This document shows, in pieces, positions 9,951 through 40,880 of a stretch of 54,476 nt of DNA. This stretch comes from Deltaproteobacteria bacterium. GTDB taxonomy: Bacteria; Desulfobacterota; Dissulfuribacteria; Dissulfuribacterales; UBA3076. The stretch is taken from the NCBI GenBank assembly GCA_011042225.1, contig DQXT01000056.1, forward strand, positions 1-54,476, read 5' to 3'. Both the position numbers and the translations under genes were made by a program. The notes beneath the pieces are model-generated. The model ran no database searches, was not told the DNA's origin, and worked only from the letters and a program-made list of their open reading frames with translations. The stretch's first letter is position 1; every line of letters begins with the position of its first letter.

Positions 9951-11336
9951 CTACAGACTCAATCCAGAGATAACCTCAAAACTCCGATCGAGGATATCTT
10001 CTATCTGATCCACTGTTACCGAAAGTGGAAGAAAAAGATAAACTATATCGTTTAAGGGCCTGAGTATCAGTCCTTTTTTTAATCCATCTTTATAAATCAT
10101 CTGCCCTACCCTTTTTTCAGGCGGAAACATGGTCCCGGTCTTCCGATCCATGACCAGTTCAAAAGCAGCCACCATGCCGATACCTCTGACATCTCCAACG
10201 AAAGGCAGCTTTCTAAAGCCTTTAATGCCGGACTGGAAAACACTGATTTTATCCTGCAACCCATTAAGCACATTCTCTTGCTCAAATACCTCCAAAGAGG
10301 CCAAAGCAGCTGCAGATGCCAAAGGATTACCCGTAAAAGTATGACCATGGAAAAACGTCCTTCCTTCTCGGTAGTCGGCATAAAAGGCGTTATATACCTC
10401 GTCAGTAGTTATAGTGGCTGCCATGGGGATATATCCGGCGGTCAGCCCCTTTGAAAGACATAAAAAATCAGGACTTATCCCGGCGTGTTCAAGGGCGAAC
10501 ATCCGCCCGGTCCGCCCGAAGCCAGTGGCAACTTCGTCCAGAATCAGATGGATCCCGTAGTTAGAAACAAGCTCGGCCAACCTTTTCAGGTATTTCACTG
10601 GATATACTATCATCCCACCCGCTGCCTGGAGCAAAGGCTCAAGTATGATTCCTGCTATCTCATGCCCTTTATCAGCAAGCAATTCATCAAGAGGACCAAG
10701 GCAGGCAAGCGAGCAGTCGAGTAATCCGGCGCCTTGACGATTTGGTGATTCAACGGTTGGTTCGGCCTTATATGGACAGCGGTAACAATACGGAGATGGT
10801 ATCCGATAGGAATCAAAGGTGAGGGTATCAAATGGGCTATTGAATGCCTTAACACCTCCAAGGCTCATGGCACCGACAGTATCACCGTGATAACCTCTTT
10901 CAAGTGAAATAAAACCTTTCCTCGCGGTCTCGCCCATATGCCTCCAGTACTGAAAGGACATATTTATTGCCACCTCACAGGCAGTAGAGCCGTTATCAGA
11001 ATAAAAAACCCGGTCCAGCCCATCAGGGGTCAAGTCAACCAGTCTTTCAGCCAGGCGAATGGCTCCCTCATGGGTAGTACCTGCGAAATGTACGTGTTCC
11101 AGTCTATCCAACTGAGCCATGATTGCGGATTTGATCATGGGATGATTGTGACCGTGAAGTATACACCACCATGAGGATATGGTGTCATAATAGCGTCGTC
11201 CCAGTGAATCAAATAGAAATATACCCTCACCCCGATCCACAAAAAGTAGATTATCCTTCTCAAAATCCTTCATCTGGGTATAAGGATGCCACAGGTATTT
11301 GCGATCGAGGTCCAGCAAATCAAGTTCGGAGTTCAT
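9951..11336 (-). CDS. bioA: Adenosylmethionine-8-amino-7-oxononanoate aminotransferase BioA
   Basis: Class III aminotransferase with the BioA N-terminus (LWHPYTQMKDF), ILDEVATGFGRTG, and the PLP lysine context LCLSKGLTAGY. It lies directly upstream of bioB. Confidence 0.9.
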   Translation of the reverse strand: MNSELDLLDLDRKYLWHPYTQMKDFEKDNLLFVDRGEGIFLFDSLGRRYYDTISSWWCILHGHNHPMIKSAIMAQLDRLEHVHFAGTTHEGAIRLAERLVDLTPDGLDRVFYSDNGSTACEVAINMSFQYWRHMGETARKGFISLERGYHGDTVGAMSLGGVKAFNSPFDTLTFDSYRIPSPYCYRCPYKAEPTVESPNRQGAGLLDCSLACLGPLDELLADKGHEIAGIILEPLLQAAGGMIVYPVKYLKRLAELVSNYGIHLILDEVATGFGRTGRMFALEHAGISPDFLCLSKGLTAGYIPMAATITTDEVYNAFYADYREGRTFFHGHTFTGNPLASAAALASLEVFEQENVLNGLQDKISVFQSGIKGFRKLPFVGDVRGIGMVAAFELVMDRKTGTMFPPEKRVGQMIYKDGLKKGLILRPLNDIVYLFLPLSVTVDQIEDILDRSFEVISGLSL

Positions 11337-12825
11337 ATTGATTAACCTTTATAAAAGAACCGGATTCCAAAGGCCGGTCCAGAGTTTCTTGAAGAAAAGA
11401 AGTAAGATCAACCCGGTTTCCATTGTGCCACCAGCAACGGAGGATATTGCCGGTCTCAGGATTCCTCATCCAATCAGCTCCAGCGGTTTCGGACAGATAT
11501 TCTGATAGACAGGCGGATCCTATAAATGCCTGGAAGTAATCCAGGGAATAAAAATCAGGCATGAGATCAAAAAGATAGGTCTCCGGATCATAGTAAAAGC
11601 CGGATTCCCTTTTCATCACTTCCGAGTAAAAGGGCTGTCCCCTTTTTAGTCGACCGAGGCGGAAATTCTCCACTTCAATAACCAGTTTCGTGGCGTAACG
11701 GCGAGTCAAAGTGAGCCACTTCATGGCATGGGCGCTTGAGACAACCTCCGCATTTTCAGAAGACAGCCCCAGAACTTCACTAAGAAATTCTCTGGACATG
11801 CACATTCTCTGAAAAAGAAAGGCAAAGGCCTCTGATAAGGCCCATGTTTGAAAGAAGTCCTTCTCTTCAGGGGAAAGCGCCGGATCTGTATAAGTGAAAC
11901 TCAGGGCGTGACCCAGTTCATGGAAGAGTGATTCCATATCCAACCAGCCCTTGATAGGTCCGGTAATGATGTGTATCTCTCCCGGTATATCCACCGGGAT
12001 ACAGTAAGACTGGCAGCCCGGAACCCCTTTTGAATGAATATGGAGTGCGGAATTCCCAATAAGGTCAATTCCCCATTTGCGAAAAAAGTCTGCAATCTTC
12101 TCGATGGTGATACTCTGAGGAAAAAGGTGATCCAGATAACGGAGTCCCAAAAGATATATGGCATCAAAACGGGAGGCAGGCTTCAGCGACATCCCTGTAA
12201 CCCTGTTCAGCCAAGGCTCGATAAAATATCTGTATGTCTCTCTGGTTTGACCGAGAAAGTCTTGGGCCTGAGATCCTGATTCTGTCAGAGAAATACCCCT
12301 TTTCCCTTCGCAAAATGCTATATATTCAGGATAACCAAGGTCGTGTTTCAGCACATTTAAAAGGGCCTTCCACGAGGCATAACTGAAAGGCATCAATAAG
12401 GCACAAATAGAGCGCACTTCTTCGGCCAGTGTATTTCTGTCCTGGTTATCGCTGGTTTCCTGGCACCATGTGATTATTTCAGTAAACGGGATATGCCGGG
12501 AACCTACCCTGGCCTTTGCTCCCCGCATCCATGTGTTAAGCACTGCCTGAAATGGTTCAATCTTTAACCGTATAAAATAATCAATTGCCTGGTAGTAAAC
12601 CCGCCCGGCAAATCCAACCGTACCAAAGGCGTGCTTTATCTTCTCAACATCCGCCAATTCCATGGGAACGAGCATATCATTTCGTTTATGCCCTGCTCCA
12701 AGATAGAGACTAAAGTCACGACTCCTTATTGCCTTGGTCATATTCAGAAGTCTTTCTATCCATTCATTACGGACATGATTTTGAAGTCCCTGCAGTCCTG
12801 ATCCAGTCATTTGTTCCTGCTTCAT
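11320..12825 (-). CDS. Putative zinc metallopeptidase (HExxH, M3/oligoendopeptidase-like), function unknown
   Basis: 501-aa ORF with a single HELGH motif (LFHELGHALSF) and no signal peptide. Its stop overlaps the bioA start by 17 nt. Confidence 0.55.
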   Translation of the reverse strand: MKQEQMTGSGLQGLQNHVRNEWIERLLNMTKAIRSRDFSLYLGAGHKRNDMLVPMELADVEKIKHAFGTVGFAGRVYYQAIDYFIRLKIEPFQAVLNTWMRGAKARVGSRHIPFTEIITWCQETSDNQDRNTLAEEVRSICALLMPFSYASWKALLNVLKHDLGYPEYIAFCEGKRGISLTESGSQAQDFLGQTRETYRYFIEPWLNRVTGMSLKPASRFDAIYLLGLRYLDHLFPQSITIEKIADFFRKWGIDLIGNSALHIHSKGVPGCQSYCIPVDIPGEIHIITGPIKGWLDMESLFHELGHALSFTYTDPALSPEEKDFFQTWALSEAFAFLFQRMCMSREFLSEVLGLSSENAEVVSSAHAMKWLTLTRRYATKLVIEVENFRLGRLKRGQPFYSEVMKRESGFYYDPETYLFDLMPDFYSLDYFQAFIGSACLSEYLSETAGADWMRNPETGNILRCWWHNGNRVDLTSFLQETLDRPLESGSFIKVNQYELRT

Positions 12826-13008: not shown

Positions 13009-13305
13009 ATGAGTGCAAGAAACTTTAGCGTGAGCCAAGACGGCCAAGGTGTTTATCACCTTGAAGGAGAACTCTCTATCCATGAACTGGATAAGGTCAA
13101 AGTCTTTCTGGAAGAGTCTCTTAAAGGCGTAGGGGAGGTTTCCCTTTCCCTTGCCAAAGTCAGATTTATTGACACTGCTGCTCTTCAGTTGCTGATTGCC
13201 TTTAAGCGACGTTTGGAACCCGGGGCCAAACTGAAAATTTCCTCTGTTTCTGATGAGGTGGAGGACATTTTGTCTCTTTGCGGTCTAAAGGCCTCATTGC
13301 TGTAA
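13009..13305 (+). CDS. STAS domain protein (anti-sigma-antagonist fold)
   Basis: 98 aa with the characteristic VRFIDTAALQLL segment of SpoIIAA/STAS domains. It is the first gene of the che operon. Confidence 0.8.
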   Translation: MSARNFSVSQDGQGVYHLEGELSIHELDKVKVFLEESLKGVGEVSLSLAKVRFIDTAALQLLIAFKRRLEPGAKLKISSVSDEVEDILSLCGLKASLL

Positions 13306-13317
13306 CAAGTATGCCAG

Positions 13318-13701
13318 ATGGAAAAACATATTCTCTTGATAGATGATTCGCCTACGATGAGGTTATCTGTTTCATTTTGTCTGCGAAATGCAGGATATAA
13401 AGTGACAGAAGCTACAGACGGCAAAGATGCCTTTCAAAAACTGCAGCTGCTAAAAGACAAAGATGATTCTCTGGCCTTAATTATCACCGACATTAATATG
13501 CCGGAGATGGATGGAATTACTTTCATATCCAAGATAAAAGAGAGCGAGCTAAAATTCCTTCCCATATTAGTCCTGACTACAGAGGATGAAGAATCCATGA
13601 TAGGTAAAGGCCGTGCCGCCGGCGTCTCGGGGTGGCTGCTGAAGCCTTTTCAACCAGAACAACTGCTCTGGGCTGTCAAGAAAGTCATGTGGTCGAAATG
13701 A
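13318..13701 (+). CDS. cheY: CheY-like single-domain response regulator
   Basis: ILLIDDSPTMR, LIITDINMPEMDG and LLKPF are present, so all canonical receiver residues are intact. Its stop overlaps the cheA start (ATGA). Confidence 0.9.
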   Translation: MEKHILLIDDSPTMRLSVSFCLRNAGYKVTEATDGKDAFQKLQLLKDKDDSLALIITDINMPEMDGITFISKIKESELKFLPILVLTTEDEESMIGKGRAAGVSGWLLKPFQPEQLLWAVKKVMWSK

Positions 13702-15827
13702 GTGGACAAGAAGAAATCTTAGATATCTTTTTCTCTGAGTCAGACGATCTGCTCAAATTGGCGGAAGAAAGTCTTCTGTCGCTCGAATCCACACCAGATT
13801 CCATGCCGGACATAGAACAGCTTTTCAGGTCGGTTCATACAATAAAGAGTAGTGCGGCAATGGTCGGATTCATGAATATTTCAGACTATGCCCACCAGCT
13901 TGAGACCCTAATGGAACGTCTTAGGTCTCATAAGCTGGATATTACAAAGAACCTTATTACCACTCTTTTAAGCTCAATAGATTTTATTCGGTCTATGATT
14001 GACAGGGTGTCTCAAGGAGAGACCGAAGCAGAGCCTGGGGTCCTCGATGAAAAAAAAGACCAGGTGAAACGCTACCTGGGGATCCAGGCCATGGATGCAC
14101 CTGAGGAGAAATCAGTCGCACCGGTCAAGGAAGCCCCCAAGGAACCCATAGAAAAATTCAGCTTTTACAGAATCGACCTTGTGTTTCGAAAGGATCTTTT
14201 CTATTCCGGCCAGGACCCGATCCTTGTCTTATCATGCCTATCGGAGCTAGCCGAATTTGTCGAGGTAGTACCTGACCTTTCTGAATTTCCCGATTTTAAA
14301 ACCTTTTGTATGTATGATCTCTATATATCCTGGCGGGTAATCATTAAGACCAAACAGCCTCTTGAGGATATTGAAGACGTCTTCATGTTTGTCAAAGACG
14401 ACAACGACATTCGTATTGAAAATATTACCAAAAACTACAGAGAGGGTATTGATATAGGACTTGCTGAAAAAAAACTGGGCGAAGTGCTACTGGAAAACGG
14501 GAAAATTACAGCGGACGTATTGACCAGTGCTTTGAACAAACAAAAAAGGCTGGGCGAGGTATTGCTGGAAGATGGGAAAATTGAGCCTAAAGAGCTTCAA
14601 AAGGTCCTGGCCCTGCAGGAGGAGAGCCGCAAGGTCTATCGTAAGACAACTATTCGTGTTGACGTGGAAAAGCTTGATAACCTGGTAAATCTGGCTGAGG
14701 AAATGGGGATTGGAGTCTCTAAAGTACTCATGTTATTTGAAAAATATACAGGCAATGGGAAAATGGAAATGCTGGAAGAAGTGGAAAATCTCCTCAAGGT
14801 GAATCGAGAATTTGAAGAACGAGTCGCCCAGGTCAGAATGTTTCCTCTGGAAGGGACCTTCCAGAGATTCCAACGCATGGTAAGGGATCTTGCTTTTAAA
14901 CAAAACAAAGAGGTCAAGGTGATATCGACCGGACTTGATACCGAATTGGACAAAGAGGTTATTGAACATATTTCAGATCCCTTAAAACACATTGTGCGAA
15001 ATTGTCTTGATCATGGCATAGAAACCGCGGAAGAAAGGCAGGCAAAGGGCAAAACGCCCTTTGGGATAATAAAATTAAAGGCCTATCAAAAAGGAGGAAG
15101 CATCTTTATTGAGATCAGTGACGACGGAAGAGGAATAAATTTGATTGACATTCAGCAAAAGGCGCTTGAAAAGGGCTGGATTCAAACGGATCAAGACTTG
15201 AGCAATGAAGACTTGCTGAAATTTATCCTTATGCCAGGATTTTCCACGAGCTCAAAAATTACGGAACTCTCTGGAAGAGGGGTTGGGATGGATGTGGTCA
15301 AGACACAGATTGATCAGCTTGGCGGCACCATAGATATAAAAACGGAAAAGGACAAGGGGACCAGGTTTACCTTATGCCTGCCTTTGACATTCGCCCTCAT
15401 GCAGGCATTGCATGTGATGGTGCATAACAATTCATACATGGTACCACTGCAGGCTGTTCTTGAAACCGAAAGGTTTGACAAGGGACTCGTAAAAAGCTTC
15501 GGGGCCGAGGAAAAGATGTACCCATTCCAAGATGATTATCTTCCTCTTATAGATATCACAAAAATACTCAATACAGGTGTGCTTTCTGCAAACGACAACA
15601 CCTCTGCTCTGGTCTTTGTAGATACAGGGAGAAAGTCCTTCGGAATACCTGTAGAGCAGGTGCTGGAACCGAGACAGATTGTTGTTAAGAATCTGGAGGC
15701 AAACTACCGCCCCGTAAAGGGGATTGCCGGTGCCAGCATCCTCGGGGATGGTTCGGTCTCACTCGTCTTAGATCTTTTAGGATTCGAAGAAATATTTTTC
15801 CAACATCCCTTTGAAGGGGCTGGATAA
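13698..15827 (+). CDS. cheA: Chemotaxis histidine kinase CheA with an atypical insert between the Hpt and dimerisation domains
   Basis: Contains Hpt (HTIKSSAAMVGF), HATPase_c (DHGIE, DDGRGI, SGRGVGMDVV, GTRFTL) and a C-terminal CheW-like domain. The start is set at ATG 13698 (MSGQEEILDIFF); the track's upstream extension overlaps cheY. Confidence 0.9.
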   Translation: MSGQEEILDIFFSESDDLLKLAEESLLSLESTPDSMPDIEQLFRSVHTIKSSAAMVGFMNISDYAHQLETLMERLRSHKLDITKNLITTLLSSIDFIRSMIDRVSQGETEAEPGVLDEKKDQVKRYLGIQAMDAPEEKSVAPVKEAPKEPIEKFSFYRIDLVFRKDLFYSGQDPILVLSCLSELAEFVEVVPDLSEFPDFKTFCMYDLYISWRVIIKTKQPLEDIEDVFMFVKDDNDIRIENITKNYREGIDIGLAEKKLGEVLLENGKITADVLTSALNKQKRLGEVLLEDGKIEPKELQKVLALQEESRKVYRKTTIRVDVEKLDNLVNLAEEMGIGVSKVLMLFEKYTGNGKMEMLEEVENLLKVNREFEERVAQVRMFPLEGTFQRFQRMVRDLAFKQNKEVKVISTGLDTELDKEVIEHISDPLKHIVRNCLDHGIETAEERQAKGKTPFGIIKLKAYQKGGSIFIEISDDGRGINLIDIQQKALEKGWIQTDQDLSNEDLLKFILMPGFSTSSKITELSGRGVGMDVVKTQIDQLGGTIDIKTEKDKGTRFTLCLPLTFALMQALHVMVHNNSYMVPLQAVLETERFDKGLVKSFGAEEKMYPFQDDYLPLIDITKILNTGVLSANDNTSALVFVDTGRKSFGIPVEQVLEPRQIVVKNLEANYRPVKGIAGASILGDGSVSLVLDLLGFEEIFFQHPFEGAG
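14472..14617 (+). other. Tandem MshEN/T2SSE_N-like 24-residue motifs inside CheA
   Basis: KLGEVLLENGKITADVLTSALNKQ, then K, then RLGEVLLEDGKIEPKELQKVLALQ. Both copies fit RLGxx[LVI][LVI]xxGx[LVI]xxxxLxxxLxxQ. The two DNA copies are also visibly similar (ctgggcgaagtgctactggaaaacgggaaaatt versus ctgggcgaggtattgctggaagatgggaaaatt). Confidence 0.55.
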
Positions 15828-15866: not shown

Positions 15867-18179
15867 ATGATAAATTGGATAGATAAACTGCTGAAAAGAA
15901 CCGGACTTCGTGTCAAAATCCTGGTGGCGACAATTATGGTGGTCGGAGTATTTACCGGCCTTTTCCTTTATGAGGCGCTGTCTTCCTCCACTGAAAGGGC
16001 CTTGAAACAGATATCACAATCGAATCAAAGTCTGCTCAAAAACACCTACAGCGCCATCAGATATCCCATGTCTGTAGGGGACAGCAAGACAGTTGAAGCT
16101 CAATTGAAGGACGTAAAAGAGCACATGGAAGGCATTGAGGTCTATATATCGGACTTCCGCAACACCGTCATCTATGCCTCAGAAGAGGACCGCATTAATA
16201 CCAGCATTACCCACTACTTGTCTGAAAAAAAGAACCAGAAAGTACTCAGCAACGTAATAAGCACAGGTCTGCCGCCTGAAGAATCCCTTACAGAAACTGA
16301 AGATAATGAGATATTCATGGTCACCATGATGCCCCTCTTGAACGAAAGTAGTTGTCACCACTGCCACGGGACAAGTCAAAGGATACTGGGTGCCATGGTT
16401 GTGAAACACTCCGTAAAGGAGGTTTACGCGTCGCTTGCCGCAGCCAGGAATCGCCTAATCGTGTTTTCTGCAATTGAAATCATAGGGATTATACTTGTCA
16501 TTAACTTTCTGTTTAATCGACTGGTAACCCGTCGTATTACGTCTCTGGCAGAAAAAACTGGCCAGGTCTCGGCAGGCGATATAAACGTCGAAATCCACGA
16601 TGATTCCCGAGACTCCATCGGGAGGTTGGCTCGGGATTTCAACCATATGATCCGGAACATCCGCGATCGCATAGAATATGCCAACAGCCTCAGCCGAGGC
16701 ATCACGGACGCGTTTCTTATGGTCGACCCTGATATGAAGATAACCTATATAAATGATGCGGCTGCAAAACTTGCCGGAGTCCGACCTGCTGATGTTCAGG
16801 GCAAGAAAACCTGTAAAGAGGTATTCAACAGTGATATGTGCCGCACGTCATGCCCTATAAAAAGGGCCATGCAAACAGGAAAAGTCAGCGCTGGCCAGAA
16901 GGTCACCCTGAAAACCTCTGAAGGCAAAGAAATTCCCATCATGGCGAGTGGCGCTACCCTGTTGGATTCTTCCGGCAAAATCCTGGGTGGATTTGAAATT
17001 ATGCGCAATATATCCAAAGAGGTCAAGGCAGAATCTATACTCAAGAATTCTTTTCTTAAAGAAGAAGAAAAAAAGGAGAAATTACAGAGCAGGGTCGAAG
17101 ACCTTTCGAATATCTTGAACAGGGTTTCCAGGGGAGACCTGACAGTAAGAGGCAAAATTAGTAGCGAAAACGATGCAATGGACCAGTTGGTCCAAAGGAC
17201 CAACGAGACTATTGACCGCATGGAGGAGCTTATCGGACAGACGAAAAACGCAGCTCTTGCAGTGGTCAATGGGGTTCGGTACATCTCAGAAGAAAATCAG
17301 AAGCTTTCGCAGCGCACCCAGCAACAGGCCAGCACTACGGAAGAAACGAGCGGAACCGTGCAAGAACTTGTATCGGGTATTACCATGAACGCTGGCAATA
17401 CCCAGAGGGCCGACAGGCTTTCAAAGGAGGCAGTGACAGTCGCCGCAGAAGGTGGAAATACAGTTAAAAATACAACCGAGGCCATGAACGATATGGCAGA
17501 AGGTAGCCGCAAGGTAGTTGAGATGATGGATTTGATCAACGAGATAACCTTTCAGACAAGCCTTCTTTCGATCAATGCTGCCGTAGAGGCGGCAAGGGCC
17601 GGAGAGCACGGCAGGGGATTTGCCGTAGTTGCCGACGAAATTCGACGTCTTGCAAGAAGAAGCTCCAGCGCATCCAAAGATATCCAAGGCCTTGTACAAA
17701 ATATCGTGGAAAGGGCCGGCACTGGCAAGGAATGGGTCGGCCAACTGGAAAATGGTTTTAAAAAGATCATTCAAACCATTAAAGAGGCCTCTGATGCCCT
17801 TGGTGAAGTCTCCTCGGCCACACAGGAAAGCGCAAAAGGTGTAGAACAAATTGGCCAGGCAATGGGCGAGATGAGTGATGTGGTTGAACACAATGCGACA
17901 TTGGTGGATGAACTTGCAAACGCTGCAGAACATCTCAACGAAAAAGCGACCTTACTGCAAGACATGACGGATAAGTTCATTCTTAGCGACCGTTACGATA
18001 TCGAGGTTGAAGATTTTGGTTTCAAAAAAGGCATCTTGGTTTCAAAAAACGAGAGGCGGGGAAATAAACCGCTTACCACAAAGCCCCTTCGTGAAGAGCT
18101 GGCCACTCAATATCCAATTGAAGAGAAGTCCGAAGACTTTATAGGAAAAGAACTGGATGCAGGGTTTGAGGAATTTTAA
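15867..18179 (+). CDS. Methyl-accepting chemotaxis protein: periplasmic CxxCH sensor, HAMP, PAS, MA domain, C-terminal GFEEF tail
   Basis: Domain order: TM1, periplasmic domain ending in SSCHHCHG, TM2 (LIVFSAIEIIGIILVINFLF), HAMP (IGRLARDFNHMIRNI), PAS, then the conserved signalling hairpin (EITFQTSLLSINAAVEAARAGEHGRGFAVVADEIRRLA). Confidence 0.9.
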   Translation: MINWIDKLLKRTGLRVKILVATIMVVGVFTGLFLYEALSSSTERALKQISQSNQSLLKNTYSAIRYPMSVGDSKTVEAQLKDVKEHMEGIEVYISDFRNTVIYASEEDRINTSITHYLSEKKNQKVLSNVISTGLPPEESLTETEDNEIFMVTMMPLLNESSCHHCHGTSQRILGAMVVKHSVKEVYASLAAARNRLIVFSAIEIIGIILVINFLFNRLVTRRITSLAEKTGQVSAGDINVEIHDDSRDSIGRLARDFNHMIRNIRDRIEYANSLSRGITDAFLMVDPDMKITYINDAAAKLAGVRPADVQGKKTCKEVFNSDMCRTSCPIKRAMQTGKVSAGQKVTLKTSEGKEIPIMASGATLLDSSGKILGGFEIMRNISKEVKAESILKNSFLKEEEKKEKLQSRVEDLSNILNRVSRGDLTVRGKISSENDAMDQLVQRTNETIDRMEELIGQTKNAALAVVNGVRYISEENQKLSQRTQQQASTTEETSGTVQELVSGITMNAGNTQRADRLSKEAVTVAAEGGNTVKNTTEAMNDMAEGSRKVVEMMDLINEITFQTSLLSINAAVEAARAGEHGRGFAVVADEIRRLARRSSSASKDIQGLVQNIVERAGTGKEWVGQLENGFKKIIQTIKEASDALGEVSSATQESAKGVEQIGQAMGEMSDVVEHNATLVDELANAAEHLNEKATLLQDMTDKFILSDRYDIEVEDFGFKKGILVSKNERRGNKPLTTKPLREELATQYPIEEKSEDFIGKELDAGFEEF

Positions 18180-18631
18180 TGTCTGACGCTCAGCAATATG
18201 TAGTCTTTTTAATAAATGAACAGACATATGGAATTGAGATCCTCAAGATAAAAGAGGTCGTCGCTTATAAAAAGATCACACCTCTTCCCGACATGAAAGG
18301 GTTCATAAAGGGGATCATTAATCTGAGGGGTGTTGTCTTGCCTGTATTCGATTTGAGAAAAAAGTTTAATCTACCGGAGACATCATACACTCCCTTCCAT
18401 ACAATCATTGTAATGGAAATTTCAGGAAGGGTTATGGGGGTTATAGTGGATGAGATCTCGGACGTGGTGGAACTCCTCCCTGAAGAAGTTCAAGCTACCT
18501 CCAGCCTTCCTCCCGGTGTACACACCGAATACATGAAAGGAATCGGGAAAAAGGAATATGGCCTTATGGTCCTGTTAGATATAGATCGACTCTTGAGTCC
18601 CGAAGAACTTGAGATCCTTGATGCTGCATGA
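18179..18631 (+). CDS. cheW: Coupling protein CheW
   Basis: 150 aa with typical CheW sequence (YVVFLINEQTYGIEILKIKEV, INLRGVVLPVFDLRKKF). The ATG overlaps the MCP stop (TAATG). Confidence 0.9.
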   Translation: MSDAQQYVVFLINEQTYGIEILKIKEVVAYKKITPLPDMKGFIKGIINLRGVVLPVFDLRKKFNLPETSYTPFHTIIVMEISGRVMGVIVDEISDVVELLPEEVQATSSLPPGVHTEYMKGIGKKEYGLMVLLDIDRLLSPEELEILDAA

Positions 18632-18652: not shown

Positions 18653-19483
18653 ATGGACGGCCTGTCGGAAAGAGAATTTGAGTCATTCAGAAATCTAGTA
18701 AAAAAACATATAGGCATTTCGTTTGATCGTACCAAAAAGGCGGTCCTGCAAAGAAAGTTGGCCCTCAGAGTAAATAGCCTTGGATTGGAATCATATGGAA
18801 AATATTATCTTTACTTGCTCCAAGAAAAAGAAAGCAAAGGGGAATTAAGGCAACTCATCAACACGCTTACAGTCGACCAAACCGCCTTTTTCAGGCATCT
18901 GAAGCAGTTTGAGCTTTTGGCCAATATCTTATTGCCTCAAGTGGCGATACAGAAGAACACCATCAAAAAGCTGCGCATATGGTCCGCTGGATGCGCCACA
19001 GGACAGGAGGCTTACAGTATCGCCATGGTGGTAAACGATATGTTTAAAGAAGATCACACTTGGGACATAAGGATCTTGGCCAGCGATATTGATACCGATG
19101 CTCTCAAATTCGCCTATAGGGGTCTATATACAAAGGAGTCCATAAAACAGGTCCCGACAGAATATCTAAACAGATATTTCAGAAGAGGTACCGGAAAGGA
19201 CTCAGGATTATTCCAAGTCAACGAGGACTTAAAAAATCGACTACTGTTTCGCAGGCTCAACTTTGTCGATTTCAACTTCCCTTTCAAGAGTCCTGTAGAC
19301 ATTATTTTTTGTCGAAATGTGATGATATATTTTGATACAGAGGTCAAGAAAAGGCTTATAGATAACTTTTTCCGCCTTTTAGAACCAGATGGATTCCTGT
19401 GTCTGGGGACTTCTGAATCTTTGATCGGAGTGGATGACCGTTTTGCCTTAGTGGGTCATTTCGTTTATCAAAAGAGGGGATAG
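18653..19483 (+). CDS. cheR: Chemoreceptor methyltransferase CheR
   Basis: Contains TAFFR, IWSAGCATGQEAYSIAM and IFCRNVMIYF (SAM-binding fold). Confidence 0.9.
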   Translation: MDGLSEREFESFRNLVKKHIGISFDRTKKAVLQRKLALRVNSLGLESYGKYYLYLLQEKESKGELRQLINTLTVDQTAFFRHLKQFELLANILLPQVAIQKNTIKKLRIWSAGCATGQEAYSIAMVVNDMFKEDHTWDIRILASDIDTDALKFAYRGLYTKESIKQVPTEYLNRYFRRGTGKDSGLFQVNEDLKNRLLFRRLNFVDFNFPFKSPVDIIFCRNVMIYFDTEVKKRLIDNFFRLLEPDGFLCLGTSESLIGVDDRFALVGHFVYQKRG

Positions 19484-19487
19484 ATAT

Positions 19488-20072
19488 TTGTACCGATTTT
19501 ACAGCAACAAGCTAAAAAAACCGGTTATAACGCTCACGGCCGGTGAATATTTCGTCACACAAAATGGTGAGGTACTTCATACCGTTGTCGGCTCCTGTAT
19601 TGCCACCTGCATCTATGATGAGAAAATAAAAGCAGCAGGGATGAACCATTTTCTACTTCCGGGGATAATTCATCCTGATGAAATCCTGTCTTCTGAAGTC
19701 GCCCGATATGGTATGTTTGCCATGGAGCTGTTGATCGGAGAACTTATTAAGTTGGGAGCACGAAGAAAAGGGCTTCAGGCCAAGGTCTTTGGAGGAGCCA
19801 ATGTATTGAAATTCAGAAGAAATGATAACGATATTACCGGATCCAATATTCGTTTTGTAAAAAAATTCTTAGAACTGGAAGACATTCCTGCTGTAAAGAT
19901 AGATGTAGGAGGCAATGCCGGCAGAAAGATATTCTTTTTTACCGACAGCCACCGAGTCCTCTTAAAACGATTTGACATGGAAAAAGACCAAAGTTCCTTT
20001 CAAGACGAAGAGGTTTATACGAGAAAGGTCTTCCAGGGACGACTGGCAAAATCCCGAGTAGTGATATATTAG
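19488..20072 (+). CDS. cheD: Chemoreceptor glutamine deamidase CheD
   Basis: Contains the GSCIATCIYD catalytic cysteine context, MNHFLLP and KVFGGANV. The start codon is TTG. Confidence 0.85.
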   Translation: MYRFYSNKLKKPVITLTAGEYFVTQNGEVLHTVVGSCIATCIYDEKIKAAGMNHFLLPGIIHPDEILSSEVARYGMFAMELLIGELIKLGARRKGLQAKVFGGANVLKFRRNDNDITGSNIRFVKKFLELEDIPAVKIDVGGNAGRKIFFFTDSHRVLLKRFDMEKDQSSFQDEEVYTRKVFQGRLAKSRVVIY

Positions 20073-20075
20073 AAG

Positions 20076-21113
20076 ATGAAACCAATCCGAGTGCTCATTG
20101 TTGATGACTCACCTGTTGTGCAGTCAGTGTTGACTACTATGCTGTCATCTAGTTCTGATATTGAGGTAGTGGGAGTTGCTTCGGACGCCTTTGATGCCAA
20201 GGATATTATGATAGAAAAAAGGCCTGATGTGATCACTCTGGACATTGAAATGCCTCGAATGGATGGAATCACATTTCTAAAACGTCTAATGAGCTTTCGT
20301 CCCATTCCAGTAATCATGATCAGTTCCTATACGTGGAAAAACAGCATTAATACCATGGAAGCCCTGAATATCGGGGCTGTTGATTTCATTACCAAACCCA
20401 GAGAGGACGCCAAAACCGGTCTCTGGAAATTGAAGCATGAAATTATCACTAAGATAAGGACGGCAGCCTGTACTCACATCAGACCCTATGCCATGGTCGG
20501 CAAAAACAGAAAGTTTGTTCCGGCGGCAAGTATGACAAACTCGAATAAAATTATTGCCGTCGGGGCCTCTACCGGCGGCACTTCTGCCATAGAAAGACTG
20601 CTGAGGTTCATGCCTCCCGATATAAACGGCACTGTCATAGTCCAGCATATGCCGGCTCGCTATACAAAGGCATATGCCAGGCGGCTGGACTCATTGTTGC
20701 CTATGGATATCAAAGAGGCCGACGGCCTGGATCGTCTCGATAGAGGAAAGGTGCTGGTAGCGCCCGGTGGAATGCATATAAATATAGCAAAGGACCATAC
20801 GGGATACTATGTCCGGCTGTTAAACGGCCCGCCAATCAAATATCAGCAGCCTTCTATAAATATGTTCTTCAATTCAGTTGCAAATACAGCGGCCTCAAAT
20901 GCCATAGGCATACTCCTGACAGGGATGGGAAGCGACGGGGCCGACGGCTTGCTGGCTATGAGGCAAGCCGGGGCCTTTACAGTCGCCCAGGACGAAGCCA
21001 CCTCACTGGTGTTCGGCATGCCGGCGGCTGCTATCAAACTGGGCGCGGTTGAAGTAGTGGCTCCACTTGATGACATACCGAATATCGTTCTTTCGAGGCT
21101 CAAGTCAGTATGA
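20076..21113 (+). CDS. cheB: Chemoreceptor methylesterase CheB (REC plus esterase)
   Basis: Contains VLIVDDSPVV, ITLDIEMPRMDG, AVGASTGG, VQHMP and GMGSDGA. Confidence 0.9.
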   Translation: MKPIRVLIVDDSPVVQSVLTTMLSSSSDIEVVGVASDAFDAKDIMIEKRPDVITLDIEMPRMDGITFLKRLMSFRPIPVIMISSYTWKNSINTMEALNIGAVDFITKPREDAKTGLWKLKHEIITKIRTAACTHIRPYAMVGKNRKFVPAASMTNSNKIIAVGASTGGTSAIERLLRFMPPDINGTVIVQHMPARYTKAYARRLDSLLPMDIKEADGLDRLDRGKVLVAPGGMHINIAKDHTGYYVRLLNGPPIKYQQPSINMFFNSVANTAASNAIGILLTGMGSDGADGLLAMRQAGAFTVAQDEATSLVFGMPAAAIKLGAVEVVAPLDDIPNIVLSRLKSV

Positions 21114-21208: not shown

Positions 21209-22114
21209 GTGGCCAAGATACTTGTCGTAGACGATAGTCGATTAATTTCCCACGTTGCAAAAACCATTCTGACCCAGCGAGGACATGAGATAATTTTGGC
21301 TCAAGATGGCTTGGAAGGCCTGGAGGCAGCCAAATCCCAACAACCTGACCTCATCCTGTTGGATTTGATCATGCCGGTCATGGATGGATACCAAATGTGT
21401 CAAAATTTAAAAGAGGAAGACAGCACCAAAGAAATACCTGTAATTATGCTCACGTCAAAGGCAGAACCTGTAGACAAGGTAAAGGGCCTGGAGCTGGGGG
21501 CCTTGGACTACGTGACCAAACCCTTTGACGAAAGCGAATTGGTAACGCGCGTAAATATACAGTTACGATTGAGGCAGCTCTATGAAGCCCTTCAAAAAAA
21601 GAATAGGCAGCTCCAGAATTTAGCCAACCGGGACGGGTTGACAGACTTATATAACCATAGATATTTCCACGATCAGCTATCAAAAGACTTTTTGCGCGCC
21701 CAGAGATATCATGAGTCTTTGTCGTGCATCTTATTAGACATAGACTATTTTAAGAAATTTAACGACACTTACGGACACCAGACAGGGGATATAGTATTAA
21801 AAACTCTGGGACAACTCATCAAAGACTCTATAAGAGACAGCGATTTCGCGGCCAGATACGGAGGCGAAGAATTTGCGATCATTTTGTATTACACAGACAA
21901 GCCGGACGCGGTTCACGTAGCTGAACGCTTAAGGCATATGGTTGAACATTGCGAGATACCCGACAAGGACAATCTGTTGCATTTCACCATCAGTTTAGGG
22001 ATTGCCACATTTCCAGACGAGCGCATCCACAATTACAAGCAGATAGTTGAATGTGCCGATAAGGCGCTATATCAGGCCAAGGGAAACGGCCGAAACCGAG
22101 TAGAGTGCTATTGA
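21209..22114 (+). CDS. Response regulator-diguanylate cyclase (REC-GGDEF)
   Basis: GTG start preceded by GAGGA. The receiver is intact (VVDDS, LLDLIMPVMDG, TKPF) and the active site reads RYGGEEF. A possible RxxD I-site (RDSD) sits 5 residues upstream of GGEEF. Confidence 0.9.
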   Translation: MAKILVVDDSRLISHVAKTILTQRGHEIILAQDGLEGLEAAKSQQPDLILLDLIMPVMDGYQMCQNLKEEDSTKEIPVIMLTSKAEPVDKVKGLELGALDYVTKPFDESELVTRVNIQLRLRQLYEALQKKNRQLQNLANRDGLTDLYNHRYFHDQLSKDFLRAQRYHESLSCILLDIDYFKKFNDTYGHQTGDIVLKTLGQLIKDSIRDSDFAARYGGEEFAIILYYTDKPDAVHVAERLRHMVEHCEIPDKDNLLHFTISLGIATFPDERIHNYKQIVECADKALYQAKGNGRNRVECY

Positions 22115-22145: not shown

Positions 22146-23123
22146 TCAGAGACTCCTGGCCATATCCTTTGCAAAATAAGTAATTATGACATCGGCGCCC
22201 GCCCGACGGATGCCGTGAAGAGACTCTTCTACAACCCTGGCCTCATCCAGCCAGCCTTTGGAAGATGCAGCCTTTATCATAGAATATTCACCGCTCACCT
22301 GATAGGCGGCAATGGGAAGGGTGAACTCCTGCCGCAGCAAACGGATTATATCAAGGTAGGGCATGGCAGGCTTCACCATAAGGATATCAGCCCCTTCCTC
22401 AAGGTCCAGCATAGCCTCCCGCATAGCTTCCCTGGCATTTGCAAAGTCCATCTGGTATGAGCGGCGATCTCCTGATTTGGGAGCGCACTCTGCAGCTTCA
22501 CGAAAGGGTCCATAGAATGATGAAGCATACTTAACAGCATAGGAGAGAATGGGGACCTGGTCAAAGCCTTGTTCGTCAAGGGCTCCCCTTATTGCTCCCA
22601 CTCGGCCGTCCATCATATCGGAAGGCGCCACAATGTCCGCCCCTGCCCTGGCATGGGAGAGAGCTACCTTTACCAGCTGCTCCAGAGTTGCATCATTATC
22701 TATACGCCCATTTGAGAGTATGCCACAATGTCCGTGTGAAGTATATTCACAAAGGCACACATCGGTTACAACAAGCAGGTCGGGCACCGACTTCTTTATG
22801 GCAGATACGGCATTTTGCACCACACCGTTTTTTATCCAGGCATGAGAACCAGCTGAGTCCTTCTTTTCAGGAAGGCCAAAGAGAAGGACTGCATTAATTC
22901 CCAGATCAAAGACTTCCTTGGCCTCTCTTACTATCCTGTCCACAGAAAACTGAAAGCAGCCGGGCATGGCCTCAATAGGCTGCTTAATACCTTTCCCATG
23001 TATAACGAAAAGTGGATATATCAGGTGCTTCGGACTCAAGGCAGTCTCACGGATCAGGGCGCGCAGAGATTCAGTACGGCGCAGCCTGCGAGGACGATAT
23101 TCAGGATACATCATGACAACCAA
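22146..23123 (-). CDS. hemB: Porphobilinogen synthase (delta-aminolevulinate dehydratase), Zn type
   Basis: RPRRLR N-terminus, the cysteine-rich [14 protein letters not shown] metal site, and the Schiff-base lysine contexts ([13 protein letters not shown]). Confidence 0.95.
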
Positions 23124-23482
23124 TTCTCCAGTCTTCGACGTAAATCGTCTGCGGTAAACGGCTCCTCAATGAAACCGCTGCAGCCTGCGTCGTGCAAGCG
23201 TTCCCTCTCCGAAGAAGAGGTTATCTCACTTATAAGCACAACCGGTATATTCTCAGTCTCATGGGACTGCTTGAGAAGCACGCTCACAGACAAGGCATCC
23301 AGCATGGGGACATCCTTACGTATAATAATCAGATCAGGCAACTCGGCCTTTGCCAAATCCAAACCTTCCTGGCCATCCTCGGCAAGTATCAGTCTGAGCC
23401 CGCTTGTATCCGCCATTTTACGGACCGTCTCGATTACTGATTCATTATAATCCACAAGGAGTATGGTCTGGCCTTCTTTCAC
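23111..23482 (-). CDS. Single-domain pseudo-receiver (REC fold lacking the phospho-acceptor residues)
   Basis: Aligned by eye to CheY. The DD pair reads D-Y (LLVDYNES). The acceptor position reads R ([13 protein letters not shown] versus xxxxxDxxMPxMDG). The conserved K reads E (IEEPF versus KPF). The gene overlaps the hemB start by 13 nt. Confidence 0.75.
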
Positions 23483-40509: not shown

Positions 40510-40627
40510 ATCGCCTTCCGCTTATTCCTTAAAATCTGCCTTTAAATCGTTTATAATCTAAAAATTATACCTCTTATTGATTTCAGCACGGAAAACATCT
40601 GCTCAGACTGTGTTTTTCAGTGCAGAA

Positions 40628-40807: not shown

Positions 40808-40880
40808 TACGTTTCTCCTTATTTTGTCTCTTTATAGAGACATACACTGAACCGCTGGCATACTCAGCCTAATCAGCTTA

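What the first reader, a model, noticed from the sequence alone, without database searches (positions are those of the whole stretch)
14472..14617. CheA carries a tandem MshEN-like (c-di-GMP receptor type) motif pair, in an operon that ends with a diguanylate cyclase
**Seen in sequence.** CheA has a long non-canonical insert between its Hpt domain and its dimerisation domain. The insert contains KLGEVLLENGKITADVLTSALNKQ-K-RLGEVLLEDGKIEPKELQKVLALQ.

**Match to a known motif.** Each half fits the 24-residue signature published for the MshEN (T2SSE_N) c-di-GMP-binding domain, RLGxx[LVI][LVI]xxG[LVI][LVI]xxxxLxxxLxxQ. The only deviation is K at motif position 11 in both halves, plus K for R at position 1 of the first.

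**Inference.** The last gene of the same operon is a REC-GGDEF cyclase that CheA could phosphorylate. This suggests a feedback loop in which the pathway output (c-di-GMP) binds the kinase itself.

**Caveats.** The spacer between the two motifs is 1 residue, against 5 in MshE. I cannot check whether this architecture has already been described.
Basis: partly seen in the sequence, partly recalled or inferred. Interest (0 to 1): 0.7.

Follow-up and report, generated by a model that had tools for sequence, protein, structure and literature searches.

The report
c-di-GMP-binding module inside CheA kinase
The chemotaxis-type kinase CheA in this window carries a genuine copy of the small MshEN_N domain that binds the bacterial messenger c-di-GMP. 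This architecture was already catalogued in 2016, and one example was shown to bind c-di-GMP; what is new here is a conserved operon that also makes c-di-GMP, so a feedback loop is plausible but untested.

Summary
**Observation: confirmed.** CheA residues 259-307 read KLGEVLLENGKITADVLTSALNKQ-K-RLGEVLLEDGKIEPKELQKVLALQ (window 14472-14618).

**Identity.**
- The curated NCBIfam model of the 53-residue MshE-type c-di-GMP-binding domain (NF053729) matches end to end, above its cut-off.
- Every significant PDB sequence hit is an MshEN domain (PilF, MshE, PilB).
- Pfam T2SSE_N misses the segment, but that model hardly covers this subdomain.

**Spacer.** The 1-residue spacer is the norm in CheA: 108 of 124 diverse representatives and 118 of 120 close homologues.

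**Already known.** Wang et al. [quoted passage not shown] They measured a KD of 2.6 µM for c-di-GMP on the Aeromonas veronii CheA fragment.

**What is specific here.**
- In the window's Desulfobacterales clade, 7 of 7 independent contexts keep a REC-GGDEF cyclase at the end of the cluster.
- In the wider CheA-MshEN_N family only 2 of 79 loci have a GGDEF nearby.
- The feedback loop is therefore a clade-specific, untested hypothesis.

**Open points.** The predicted model has four helices, but Foldseek gave no significant match. Binding by the 1-residue-spacer form is unmeasured.

**Verdict:** new member of a known kind; moderate interest.

The parts
13009..13305 (+). STAS-domain protein (98 aa), first gene of the cluster
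   Evidence: Pfam STAS E 4.5e-12. The STAS-CheY-CheA order recurs in orthologous and wider loci.
13318..13701 (+). CheY-like single-domain response regulator (127 aa). Its stop overlaps the CheA start by 4 nt.
   Evidence: Pfam Response_reg E 3.8e-26; gene calls.
13698..15827 (+). CheA histidine kinase, 709 aa, with the domain order P1(Hpt)-P2-MshEN_N-P3-P4-P5
   Evidence: Pfam Hpt 6-106, H-kinase_dim 317-367, HATPase_c 426-564, CheW 569-694. NCBIfam CheA models match at E 4e-118. The protein is identical to public protein P0170. The public gene call is also 709 aa.
13713..14015 (+). P1 / Hpt domain. The phospho-accepting His (H47) lies in RSVHTIKS.
   Evidence: Pfam Hpt E 4.3e-17. H47 was read from the translation.
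14151..14417 (+). Divergent P2 (CheY-binding) domain
   Evidence: Pfam P2 is only weak in the window protein (E 0.07-0.24). In family members, CheY-binding PF09078 matches 6 of 31 (best 5.8e-7) and P2 PF07194 matches 3 of 31. There is no PDB sequence hit.
14472..14543 (+). MshEN_N motif 1 (CheA 259-282): KLGEVLLENGKITADVLTSALNKQ
   Evidence: Contact positions are K1, L2, G3, L17, L21 and Q24.
14544..14546 (+). Single-residue spacer (K283)
   Evidence: The spacer is K in 71% of 109 family units and in 105 of 107 clade units.
14547..14618 (+). MshEN_N motif 2 (CheA 284-307): RLGEVLLEDGKIEPKELQKVLALQ
   Evidence: Contact positions R1, L2, G3, L17, L21 and Q24 are all canonical.
14646..14798 (+). 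P3 dimerisation domain, reached from MshEN_N helix 4 through a continuous helix plus a 5-residue break
   Evidence: Pfam H-kinase_dim E 2.7e-6. AF2 model helices H57-77 and H83-109.
14973..15389 (+). P4 ATP-binding kinase domain
   Evidence: Pfam HATPase_c E 2.1e-17.
15402..15779 (+). P5 CheW-like domain
   Evidence: Pfam CheW E 1.1e-16.
15867..18179 (+). MCP chemoreceptor (770 aa): periplasmic sensor with a CHHCH haem-c motif, then HAMP, PAS and the MCP signalling domain
   Evidence: Pfam Mcp40H-20_sensor, HAMP, PAS_9, MCPsignal. The motif was read from the translation.
18179..18631 (+). CheW
   Evidence: Pfam CheW E 1.5e-35.
18653..19483 (+). CheR methyltransferase
   Evidence: Pfam CheR_N and CheR on the public gene call.
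19488..20072 (+). CheD
   Evidence: Pfam CheD E 2.2e-26.
20076..21113 (+). CheB methylesterase (REC + CheB_methylest)
21209..22114 (+). REC-GGDEF diguanylate cyclase (301 aa). It has GGEEF at residues 218-222 and the I-site RDSD at 209-212 (window 21833-21874). It is the last gene of the cluster.
   Evidence: Pfam GGDEF E 1.5e-51 and Response_reg E 4.5e-31. Motifs. The nearest solved relatives are PleD (3e-69) and WspR 3bre (1e-55). It is conserved in 7 of 7 clade contexts.

Best explanation
CheA residues 259-307 are a true MshEN_N domain, the four-helix module built from two 24-residue motifs that binds c-di-GMP in MshE, PilF and NfrB. It sits between the P2 domain and the P3 dimerisation helix of an otherwise complete CheA.

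**Most likely mechanism.**
- c-di-GMP binds across the two motifs. L2 of each motif packs with L17 and L21 of the other against a guanine.
- The G3 backbone amides and Q24 make the polar contacts.
- The domain replaces the usual flexible P2-P3 linker, and its last helix runs almost straight into P3. Ligand binding would therefore change how P1/P2 reach the P4 active site, or how P3/P4 are positioned, and so tune autophosphorylation.

**In this clade.** In this Desulfobacterales clade the same operon ends with a WspR/PleD-like REC-GGDEF cyclase. If CheA phosphorylates it, the product c-di-GMP would feed back on its own kinase. The sign of that feedback is unknown.

**Shown:** homology, conservation and synteny.

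**Inferred:** binding by this 1-residue-spacer variant (about 0.7), an effect on kinase activity (about 0.55), and closure of the loop through the operon's own cyclase (about 0.4).
For: **Homology.**
- NCBIfam NF053729.1 'c-di-GMP_motif' matches positions 1-53 of 53. It scores 42.1 bits on the whole protein and 48.8 bits on the excerpt, against a cut-off of 38.
- phmmer of the segment against the PDB puts only MshEN proteins at the top.
- A profile of 78 CheA units hits only MshEN domains at E<=0.01: PilF 3.6e-30 and MshE 5HTL 7e-12, with both motifs aligned and a 4-residue gap at the spacer. The c-di-GMP-bound PilF GSPII domains are also hit.

**Contact residues.** Of the contact residues defined by Wang et al., 11 of 12 are canonical here. 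The twelfth is the conservative K for R.

**Conservation.**
- G3, L6, L17, L21 and Q24 are conserved across 109 diverse units and 107 clade units.
- 118 of 120 close homologues keep the pair.

**Predicted structure.** AF2 predicts four helices at pLDDT 90, with a 3-residue break (Q-K-R) between helices 2 and 3. Helix 4 continues toward P3.

**Precedent for binding.**
- The A. veronii CheA fragment 261-390 binds c-di-GMP with KD 2.6 µM (Wang 2016, Suppl. Table 6).
- Bd2402, aligned there with a 3-residue spacer, is listed as binding at KD 0.04 µM. NfrB, with a 4-residue spacer, is a c-di-GMP receptor.

**Synteny.** REC-GGDEF sits at the end of the cluster in 7 of 7 independent clade contexts with different flanking genes. 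GGEEF is kept in 6 of 6 and the I-site in 5 of 6.
Against: - No binding or kinase data exist for any CheA with the 1-residue spacer. The tested Aeromonas example has a spacer of about 9 residues.
- Foldseek found no significant structural match. The best MshEN hit was 9glg_B, with E 5.4, TM 0.41 and rmsd 10.6 Å. The four-helix-bundle packing is therefore not shown.
- Position 11, a core residue in MshE, is K in both halves.
- In this clade Arg at position 1 is a minority: K or P in motif 1, K or M in motif 2.
- In the wider family, GGDEF neighbours are rare: 2 of 79 loci, or 1 of 33 with full flanks. The domain's general role cannot be feedback from a cluster-encoded cyclase.
- The cluster also encodes CheY and CheB receivers, so the GGDEF protein is not the only possible phosphoacceptor.
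Confidence: 0.6

Rival explanations
1. The domain senses the global c-di-GMP pool and there is no dedicated feedback. It binds c-di-GMP made by any cyclase in the cell and biases CheA output. The operon's REC-GGDEF is simply one output, or is controlled by another kinase.
For: - 79 of 79 wider-family loci carry the same 1-residue-spacer domain. Only 2 have a GGDEF and 2 a REC-HD_5 (HD-GYP-like) gene within 10 kb.
- Most of these are ordinary MCP-CheY-CheA-CheW-CheR-CheD-CheB clusters.
- The domain therefore predates, and does not depend on, a cyclase output.
- A separate PilZ protein in the window shows that the organism has a wider c-di-GMP network.
Against: REC-GGDEF is kept at the cluster end in 7 of 7 clade contexts, even where CheR, CheD or CheB are lost (L004, L086) and where flanking genes differ. 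This argues that the cyclase is the pathway's output. Its product would then necessarily reach the adjacent CheA.
Confidence: 0.25
2. The module is a degenerate MshEN_N that no longer binds any nucleotide, as in Xanthomonas XpsE/GspE. It would serve only as a structured spacer or protein-interaction element between P2 and P3.
For: - The spacer is 1 residue instead of 5, and position 11 is K in both halves.
- The sequence fails even the published relaxed regex.
- Foldseek finds no significant match to solved MshEN domains.
- Arg at position 1 is often replaced in the clade.
Against: - The residues that are conserved are the ligand-contact ones (L2, G3, L17, L21, Q24), not only the core. XpsE lost exactly these.
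- The curated HMM cut-off is passed.
- T. thermophilus PilF motifs also have K at position 11.
- A CheA fragment with M and K at position 1 binds at 2.6 µM.
Confidence: 0.15
3. The domain binds a different cyclic dinucleotide, for example 3',3'-cGAMP, which some Desulfobacterota make with Hypr GGDEF enzymes.
For: From general knowledge only: Geobacter, Myxococcus and Bdellovibrio use cGAMP signalling. Nothing in the tool results points to this.
Against: - The operon's cyclase has the canonical N...D guanine-specificity pair (FNDTYGHQTGD; read against the PleD N335/D344 pattern, from general knowledge), not the Ser of Hypr enzymes.
- All characterised MshEN domains found here bind c-di-GMP.
Confidence: 0.05
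4. The pair is a chance or lineage-specific low-complexity duplication with no function.
For: None beyond the internal repeat itself.
Against: - It is present in 118 of 120 homologues down to 53% identity and in 124 of 157 listed proteins from the representative search, many of them truncated fragments.
- A single-pattern scan of one genome per species found 453 matching stretches that encode a relative.
- The two halves share only 54% nt identity.
- HMM E-value is 4.6e-13.
Confidence: 0.01

Closest known systems
Aeromonas veronii CheA (EKB11881) with MshEN_N, from Wang et al. 2016, Nat Commun 7:12481 (PMC5013675)
   Same: [quoted passage not shown]
- The MshEN_N sits directly before P3.
- The fragment 261-390 binds c-di-GMP with KD 2.6 µM.
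   Different: - The Aeromonas unit has a spacer of about 9 residues and M at position 1 of motif 1. The window has a 1-residue spacer and K/R at position 1.
- Its operon context and any link to a cyclase were not examined here.
- No functional follow-up was found in the searchable literature.
Vibrio cholerae MshE N-terminal domain (MshEN, PDB 5HTL)
   Same: It has two tandem 24-residue motifs of the form RLGxxLLxxGxIxxxxLxxxLxxQ. The CheA-unit profile aligns to MshE residues 7-61 across both motifs (E 7e-12). The contact residues are the same.
   Different: - MshE has a 5-residue spacer, a hydrophobic residue at position 11, and a following MshEN_C (T2SSE_N1) subdomain.
- Its domain is N-terminal to a secretion/pilus ATPase. 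Here the subdomain stands alone inside a histidine kinase.
Thermus thermophilus PilF GSPII domains (PDB 6F8L, 6EJF, 8PDK, 9GLG)
   Same: This is the best sequence match in the PDB (E 3.6e-30 for the profile). Several PilF motifs have K at position 11, as in the window. c-di-GMP-bound structures exist.
   Different: - PilF has three full MshEN domains on a pilus ATPase, with spacers of 4-5 residues.
- The Foldseek match of the AF2 model to 9glg_B is not significant.
Pseudomonas Wsp system (WspA-F plus WspR). The comparison rests on general knowledge.
   Same: A chemosensory cluster (MCP, CheW, CheR, CheB, CheA) whose output is a REC-GGDEF cyclase with an I-site. The window's cyclase matches WspR 3BRE at E 1.2e-55.
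   Different: - WspE is a CheA-REC hybrid without MshEN_N.
- Wsp has no STAS, stand-alone CheY or CheD.
- The only known product feedback in Wsp is through the WspR I-site, not through the kinase.
c-di-GMP-controlled histidine kinases CckA and ShkA of Caulobacter (general knowledge)
   Same: They are precedents that c-di-GMP can bind a histidine kinase directly and switch its activity.
   Different: The binding sites are unrelated: the CA domain in CckA and a pseudo-receiver in ShkA. Neither is a CheA-class kinase and neither has an MshEN fold.
Other c-di-GMP entries into chemotaxis: PilZ-MCPs (Tlp1, Cbp1) and MapZ-CheR1, and YcgR (general knowledge)
   Same: They link c-di-GMP levels to chemotaxis signalling or motor output.
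   Different: They act through PilZ domains on receptors, the methyltransferase or the motor, not through the kinase itself.

Membership tests
MshEN_N c-di-GMP-binding domain (NCBIfam NF053729; Wang et al. 2016) | Match to the curated 53-position domain model above its cut-off | tested here: met
   NF053729.1 covers model positions 1-53 and CheA 259-307. It scores 42.1 bits on the whole protein and 48.8 bits (E 4.6e-13) on the excerpt, against a cut-off of 38.
MshEN_N c-di-GMP-binding domain (NCBIfam NF053729; Wang et al. 2016) | Two tandem 24-residue motifs with the ligand-contact residues R1, L2, G3, L17, L21 and Q24 in each | tested here: met
   Motif 1 has K, L, G, L, L, Q. Motif 2 has R, L, G, L, L, Q. 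K at position 1 is allowed by the published relaxed motif [RKPN].
MshEN_N c-di-GMP-binding domain (NCBIfam NF053729; Wang et al. 2016) | Hydrophobic core residue at motif position 11 (strict and relaxed published regex) | tested here: not met
   Position 11 is K in both halves, so the relaxed regex gives no match. The position varies in the CheA family (D/L/V/K in motif 1, K/L/A/V in motif 2). It is also K in T. thermophilus PilF motifs.
MshEN_N c-di-GMP-binding domain (NCBIfam NF053729; Wang et al. 2016) | 5-residue spacer between the motifs (53-residue unit) | tested here: not met
   The spacer is 1 residue, giving a 49-residue unit. Spacers of 3 (Bd2402), 4 (NfrB) and about 9 (A. veronii CheA) occur in proteins reported to bind c-di-GMP. 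Spacer length is therefore not strictly defining, but a 1-residue spacer has not been tested.
MshEN_N c-di-GMP-binding domain (NCBIfam NF053729; Wang et al. 2016) | Four-helix bundle fold | tested here: inconclusive
   AF2 predicts four helices in the expected places, with pLDDT 89.9 and pTM 0.53. Foldseek against the PDB finds nothing significant; the best MshEN hit is 9glg_B (E 5.4, TM 0.41, rmsd 10.6 Å).
MshEN_N c-di-GMP-binding domain (NCBIfam NF053729; Wang et al. 2016) | Binds c-di-GMP with nM to low-µM affinity | not testable with these tools
   There is only a precedent: A. veronii CheA 261-390 binds with KD 2.6 µM.
Pfam T2SSE_N (PF05157) | Match to PF05157 at or above the gathering score | tested here: not met
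   No hit at E<=1. By the 2016 supplementary alignment, the Pfam model begins inside motif 2 and mainly covers the MshEN_C/N1 subdomain, which this CheA lacks. The miss is therefore expected and uninformative.
CheA-class histidine kinase | P1 Hpt, P3 dimerisation, P4 HATPase_c and P5 CheW-like domains in order, with the phospho-His present | tested here: met
   All four Pfam domains score above their cut-offs. NCBIfam CheA models match at E 4e-118. H47 lies in RSVHTIKS.
CheA-class histidine kinase | P2 response-regulator-binding domain | tested here: inconclusive
   In the window protein the match is weak (P2 E 0.07-0.24). Homologous segments in family members match CheY-binding (6 of 31, best 5.8e-7) and P2 (3 of 31). 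There is no PDB sequence hit.
Wsp-like chemosensory pathway with a diguanylate cyclase output | REC-GGDEF with an intact GGEEF active site encoded in the che cluster | tested here: met
   Window 21209-22114 has GGEEF and the I-site RDSD. The gene is conserved in 7 of 7 clade contexts.
Wsp-like chemosensory pathway with a diguanylate cyclase output | WspE-type hybrid CheA with a C-terminal receiver | tested here: not met
   CheA ends with P5 and has no REC domain. A separate CheY is encoded upstream.
Wsp-like chemosensory pathway with a diguanylate cyclase output | Phosphotransfer from CheA to the REC-GGDEF | not testable with these tools
   Inferred from gene order only.
PATAN / DUF4388 (PF14332) | Match at or above the gathering score | tested here: not met
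   15.3-17 bits against a cut-off of 25, and only profile positions 31-76 are matched. This probably reflects an MshEN_N-like insert within that family's model, not membership.

The most novel reading that the evidence does not exclude
In this Desulfobacterales clade, one operon would form a closed c-di-GMP loop. A haem-bearing, PAS-containing chemoreceptor drives CheA. CheA phosphorylates a WspR-like cyclase. The c-di-GMP produced binds the MshEN_N module of the same CheA and resets kinase activity. This would give adaptation (negative feedback) or a bistable switch (positive feedback) at the kinase level, alongside methylation.

A further, more speculative twist concerns the 1-residue spacer that is typical of CheA. 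It might force motif 1 of one protomer to pair with motif 2 of the other, so that c-di-GMP staples the CheA dimer next to P3.
Probability: 0.3. Interest if true: 0.6.

Novelty: new member of a known kind. Interest (0 to 1): 0.35.

Why it matters
c-di-GMP and chemosensory pathways are the two main systems that decide between motile and sessile life. The known links between them run through PilZ proteins acting on receptors, on CheR or on the motor. A c-di-GMP site on CheA itself was catalogued in 2016 and shown to bind in vitro once. No functional study was found in the literature searched here.

**What this window adds.**
- It gives a well-defined test case: a complete, conserved operon in which the candidate ligand is also the pathway's product.
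- A cultured relative, Desulfatibacillum alkenivorans AK-01, carries the same cluster.

**What the survey adds.**
- The CheA-embedded form almost always has a 1-residue spacer.
- It is common in Desulfobacterota and Nitrospirota and occurs in other phyla; a single-pattern scan of one genome per species found 453 stretches that encode a relative.
- c-di-GMP control of CheA may therefore be widespread and overlooked.

If binding changes kinase activity, this would be a new point at which c-di-GMP enters chemotaxis signalling.

Tried and rejected
It gave no hit. I rejected it as a test because that model barely covers MshEN_N.
- **Foldseek of two AF2 models against the PDB.** The 110-aa and 62-aa models gave nothing significant, so fold identity is unproven.
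- **The search for homologous proteins with short queries.** The 198-aa query and the 110-aa profile returned only short fragments. The full-length query was needed.
- **The search for related loci with the 45-sequence alignment.** It failed because no stretch was conserved enough. I replaced it with a 7-sequence subset whose only pattern was GEIL[LVI]ERGD. The wide sample is therefore biased to that subgroup.
- **P2-region profile against the PDB.** No meaningful hit.
- **Context look-ups for intermediate representatives.** P0014, P0017, P0019, P0020 and P0025 landed on contigs too short to show the cluster end.
- **Rfam scan of the window.** No hits, so no c-di-GMP riboswitch.
- **Promoter and terminator scan of the cluster.** Counts were no higher than in shuffled sequence.
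- **Recent DNA duplication or low-complexity origin.** Rejected.
- **Hypr-GGDEF (cGAMP) reading of the cyclase.** Rejected, because the sequence has the canonical specificity Asp.


Full report
**1. The observation**

Translating window 14472-14617 (+) gives KLGEVLLENGKITADVLTSALNKQKRLGEVLLEDGKIEPKELQKVLAL. The stated end cuts the last codon, so the full unit is 14472-14618.

It lies in the CheA ORF. The likely start is ATG 13698 (MSGQEE..., 709 aa), which overlaps the CheY stop by 4 nt and agrees with the public gene call. In that numbering:
- motif 1 is K259-Q282;
- the spacer is K283;
- motif 2 is R284-Q307.

Position 11 is K in both halves and position 1 of the first half is K. The published relaxed regex fails only because of position 11.

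The pair is not a chance match:
- Of 44,849 stop-free 24-mers in all six frames of the window, these two are the two best matches to a simple motif score, and they are adjacent in one frame.
- It is not a recent duplication. The halves share 39 of 72 nt, and 6 of 13 shared-residue codons differ.

**2. What the segment is**

Pfam gives no T2SSE_N hit at E<=1. This test is uninformative. In the supplementary alignment of Wang et al. 2016, the PF05157 consensus begins inside motif 2 and mainly covers the following MshEN_C/N1 subdomain, which this CheA lacks.

The appropriate model is NCBIfam NF053729.1 ('c-di-GMP_motif', 53 positions, MshE-related).
- It matches CheA 259-307 over model positions 1-53.
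- It scores 42.1 bits on the whole protein and 48.8 bits (E 4.6e-13) on the excerpt, against a cut-off of 38.

The PDB searches agree:
- phmmer of the segment puts T. thermophilus PilF (E 2.6e-9), PilB and MshE 5HTL at the top.
- A profile of 78 CheA-embedded units hits 14 PDB sequences at E<=0.01, and all are MshEN-type domains. These include PilF 6F8L (3.6e-30), MshE 5HTL (7e-12) and the c-di-GMP-bound PilF GSPII domains.
- In the MshE alignment both motifs align, with a 4-residue gap at the spacer.

Wang et al. define the ligand-contact residues as R1, L2, G3, L17, L21 and Q24 of each motif. The window has K/L/G/L/L/Q and R/L/G/L/L/Q.

**3. Anatomy of the protein and operon**

CheA has these domains:
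- Hpt, residues 6-106, with H47;
- H-kinase_dim, 317-367;
- HATPase_c, 426-564;
- CheW-like, 569-694.

The stretch 152-240 is a divergent P2. It is only weak in the window protein (E 0.07-0.24). The homologous stretch of family members matches CheY-binding PF09078 (6 of 31, best 5.8e-7) and P2 PF07194 (3 of 31). The 'long insert' is therefore P2 plus the 49-residue MshEN_N.

The cluster, all on the + strand, is:
- STAS (13009-13305);
- CheY (13318-13701);
- CheA;
- MCP (15867-18179; sensor-HAMP-PAS-MCPsignal);
- CheW, CheR, CheD and CheB;
- REC-GGDEF (21209-22114).

hemB follows on the opposite strand.

The cyclase has GGEEF and an I-site RDSD five residues upstream. Its closest solved relatives are PleD (3e-69) and WspR (1e-55).

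**4. Distribution and the spacer**

The window is a metagenomic contig (JGI 3300022552, Ga0212118_10000048; also Logan SRR7787605). Its CheA is in nr as 'Deltaproteobacteria bacterium'.

Close homologues:
- There are 120 full-length homologues at 53-100% identity. They include Desulfatibacillum aliphaticivorans and alkenivorans.
- 118 of them keep both motifs and the 1-residue spacer.
- G3 is invariant in both halves, and L6, L17, A20, L21 and Q24 are nearly so.
- Position 1 is mostly K/P in motif 1 and K/M in motif 2.

Wider search with P2+MshEN_N+P3 against 1.84 billion cluster representatives:
- It found 1083 hits at E<=1e-3 and 213 at E<=1e-10.
- Of the proteins on hand, 124 have a motif pair, and 108 of those have a spacer of exactly 1. 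Nine have 5 and one has 9.
- Pro occurs at position 1 of either motif in about 10%. This fits a helix break there rather than one continuous helix.

Genome scan:
- One scan of one genome per GTDB species, with the single pattern GEIL[LVI]ERGD, gave 453 confirmed stretches.
- The taxa include Desulfobacterota (Geobacter, Syntrophus, Desulfohalobiaceae, Desulfovibrionaceae), Nitrospirota, Brocadiaceae, SAR324, Magnetospirillum and Aminiphilus.
- All 79 loci fetched have a CheA with the pair and a spacer of 1.

The 1-residue spacer is therefore the standard form in CheA, not an anomaly.

**5. Predicted structure**

- A 110-residue model (MshEN_N plus the start of P3, 45-sequence alignment) has mean pLDDT 83.9.
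- A 62-residue model (78 sequences) has pLDDT 89.9 and pTM 0.53. Its helices are at 9-15, 21-30, 34-40 and 46-61. These are motif 1 helices 1 and 2, a 3-residue break (Q-K-R), then motif 2 helices 3 and 4.
- In the longer model, helix 4 continues for 21 residues and is separated from the first P3 helix by 5 residues.

Foldseek against the PDB was not significant for either model. The best MshEN hit was 9glg_B, with E 5.4, TM 0.41 and rmsd 10.6 Å. The secondary structure fits MshEN_N, but the tertiary packing is not demonstrated. Small helical domains are hard for Foldseek. Even so, the possibility that the short spacer changes the packing, for example to an inter-protomer arrangement in the CheA dimer, stays open.

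**6. Is the cyclase link real and general?**

In the window's clade the link is consistent. Seven independent contexts all carry REC-GGDEF as the last gene of the cluster:
- the window itself (L001);
- D. alkenivorans AK-01 (L003);
- L004 and L005;
- L085, L086 and L087, whose CheAs are 42-47% identical to the window over the P2-MshEN_N-P3 region.

These contexts have different flanking genes. The REC-GGDEF is kept even where CheR, CheD and CheB are absent, as in L004 and L086. GGEEF is kept in 6 of 6 and RxxD in 5 of 6.

In the 79 wider-family loci the link is rare:
- A GGDEF lies within 10 kb in only 2 loci, or in 1 of the 33 loci with at least 6 kb on both sides.
- Fisher's exact test for 7 of 7 against 1 of 33 gives p = 4e-7, not corrected for phylogeny.
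- The multi-domain receiver proteins near those clusters are mostly sigma-54 activators (14) and hybrid kinases (8). Only 2 are HD_5 (HD-GYP-like) proteins.

The MshEN_N module is thus a general feature of a large CheA family that sits in ordinary che clusters. Coupling to a cluster-encoded cyclase is specific to the window's clade.

**7. What is already known**

Wang et al. 2016 (PMC5013675) state that MshEN associates with 'chemotaxis protein kinase CheA'. [quoted passage not shown] They align its motifs. Their Supplementary Table 6 reports a KD of 2.6 µM for c-di-GMP on residues 261-390.

The same paper shows that isolated MshEN_N binds as well as the full domain. Later papers in the searchable library cite the domain, but none addresses the CheA case.

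**8. Most likely mechanism**

Shown:
- The segment is homologous to MshEN_N.
- The contact residues are conserved under divergence.
- The domain sits directly before P3.
- The REC-GGDEF is conserved in the clade.

Inferred:
- c-di-GMP binds across the two motifs, as in MshE.
- The domain replaces the flexible P2-P3 tether and its last helix leads into P3. Binding would therefore alter P1 delivery to P4, or P3/P4 geometry, and so change autophosphorylation.
- In this clade CheA-P would activate the WspR-like cyclase, and its product would act back on CheA.

The sign of the feedback cannot be predicted. The cyclase also has its own I-site.

Precedents for direct c-di-GMP control of histidine kinases exist (CckA and ShkA; general knowledge), but they use unrelated sites. 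The main rival is that CheA reads the global c-di-GMP pool without any dedicated loop. The family-wide data favour that reading as the ancestral role.

**9. Verdict**

- The domain assignment is correct.
- The architecture, and in-vitro c-di-GMP binding for one example, are already published.
- The window's protein is a new member of that kind.

Two modest new points emerge. First, the CheA-embedded form almost always has a 1-residue spacer, and that form has not been tested experimentally. Second, a Desulfobacterales clade, including a cultured species, couples it to a cyclase in one operon. This gives a clean system in which to test what c-di-GMP does to CheA.

Interest is moderate (0.35).

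**10. Limits**

- The wide sample of loci comes from one peptide pattern and is biased to that subgroup.
- My motif score was used both to pick and to describe units, so conservation at scored positions is partly circular. However, unscored positions (E4, I/L/V5, E8, A20) are also conserved, and HMM results agree.
- GGDEF detection in loci used a single-sequence phmmer query.
- No control set of CheAs without MshEN_N was available.

Noticed in passing
window 15867-18179 (MCP, residues ~160-170); L003, L005, L085, L086: The MCP's periplasmic sensor (Pfam Mcp40H-20_sensor) contains a CXXCH haem-c motif (CHHCH). Four orthologous clusters carry a small multihaem cytochrome gene (Cytochrome_C554/C7-like, 148-187 aa) between CheA and the MCP. 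That gene is absent from the window and from L004. This suggests that the pathway senses periplasmic redox state or electron acceptors.
   Followed up: partly
window 38171-38512 (+): A stand-alone PilZ-domain protein of 113 aa (Pfam PilZ E 5.5e-15) lies about 16 kb downstream of the cyclase. It is a second predicted c-di-GMP receptor in the window.
   Followed up: no
window 2890-5256 (+): A 788-aa ORF combines a PALP (pyridoxal-phosphate enzyme, cysteine-synthase-like) domain with a complete cysteinyl-tRNA synthetase (tRNA-synt_1e, DALR_2, CysS_C). The fusion is unusual.
   Followed up: no
window 11320-12825 (-): A 501-aa ORF, transcribed divergently from the STAS gene, has no Pfam match at E<=1e-6. 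The public gene call gives 496 aa with no family on record.
   Followed up: no
window ~39985-41746: A stretch of about 1.7 kb has no ORF of 100 aa or more and lower G+C (0.34-0.39, against 0.45-0.50 in flanking genes). It has no Rfam hit and no notable repeats.
   Followed up: partly
window 53817-54476 (+): A transposase fragment (DUF772 plus DDE_Tnp_1) runs off the end of the window.
   Followed up: no
CheA 258-309; proteins P0162, P0163, P0165, P0169: The Pfam DUF4388/PATAN model (PF14332, positions 31-76) weakly matches the MshEN_N pair. The CheA-unit profile also retrieved PF14332-annotated proteins. This suggests that the helical insert of PATAN domains is itself MshEN_N-like.
   Followed up: no
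L010, L014, L019, L065, L069, L073, L074, L079, L085, L088, L090, L092: A small STAS-domain gene recurs next to CheY-CheA(MshEN_N) in many unrelated genomes. It lies upstream in most, and just downstream of CheA in L090 and L092. It may be a conserved, uncharacterised partner of this CheA family.
   Followed up: partly
window 23111-23482 (-) and 23514-25337 (-): A stand-alone receiver protein (123 aa) is followed on the same strand by a ClpB-like AAA_2 ATPase (607-aa ORF; public aa). Both lie just beyond hemB, on the strand opposite to the che cluster.
   Followed up: no
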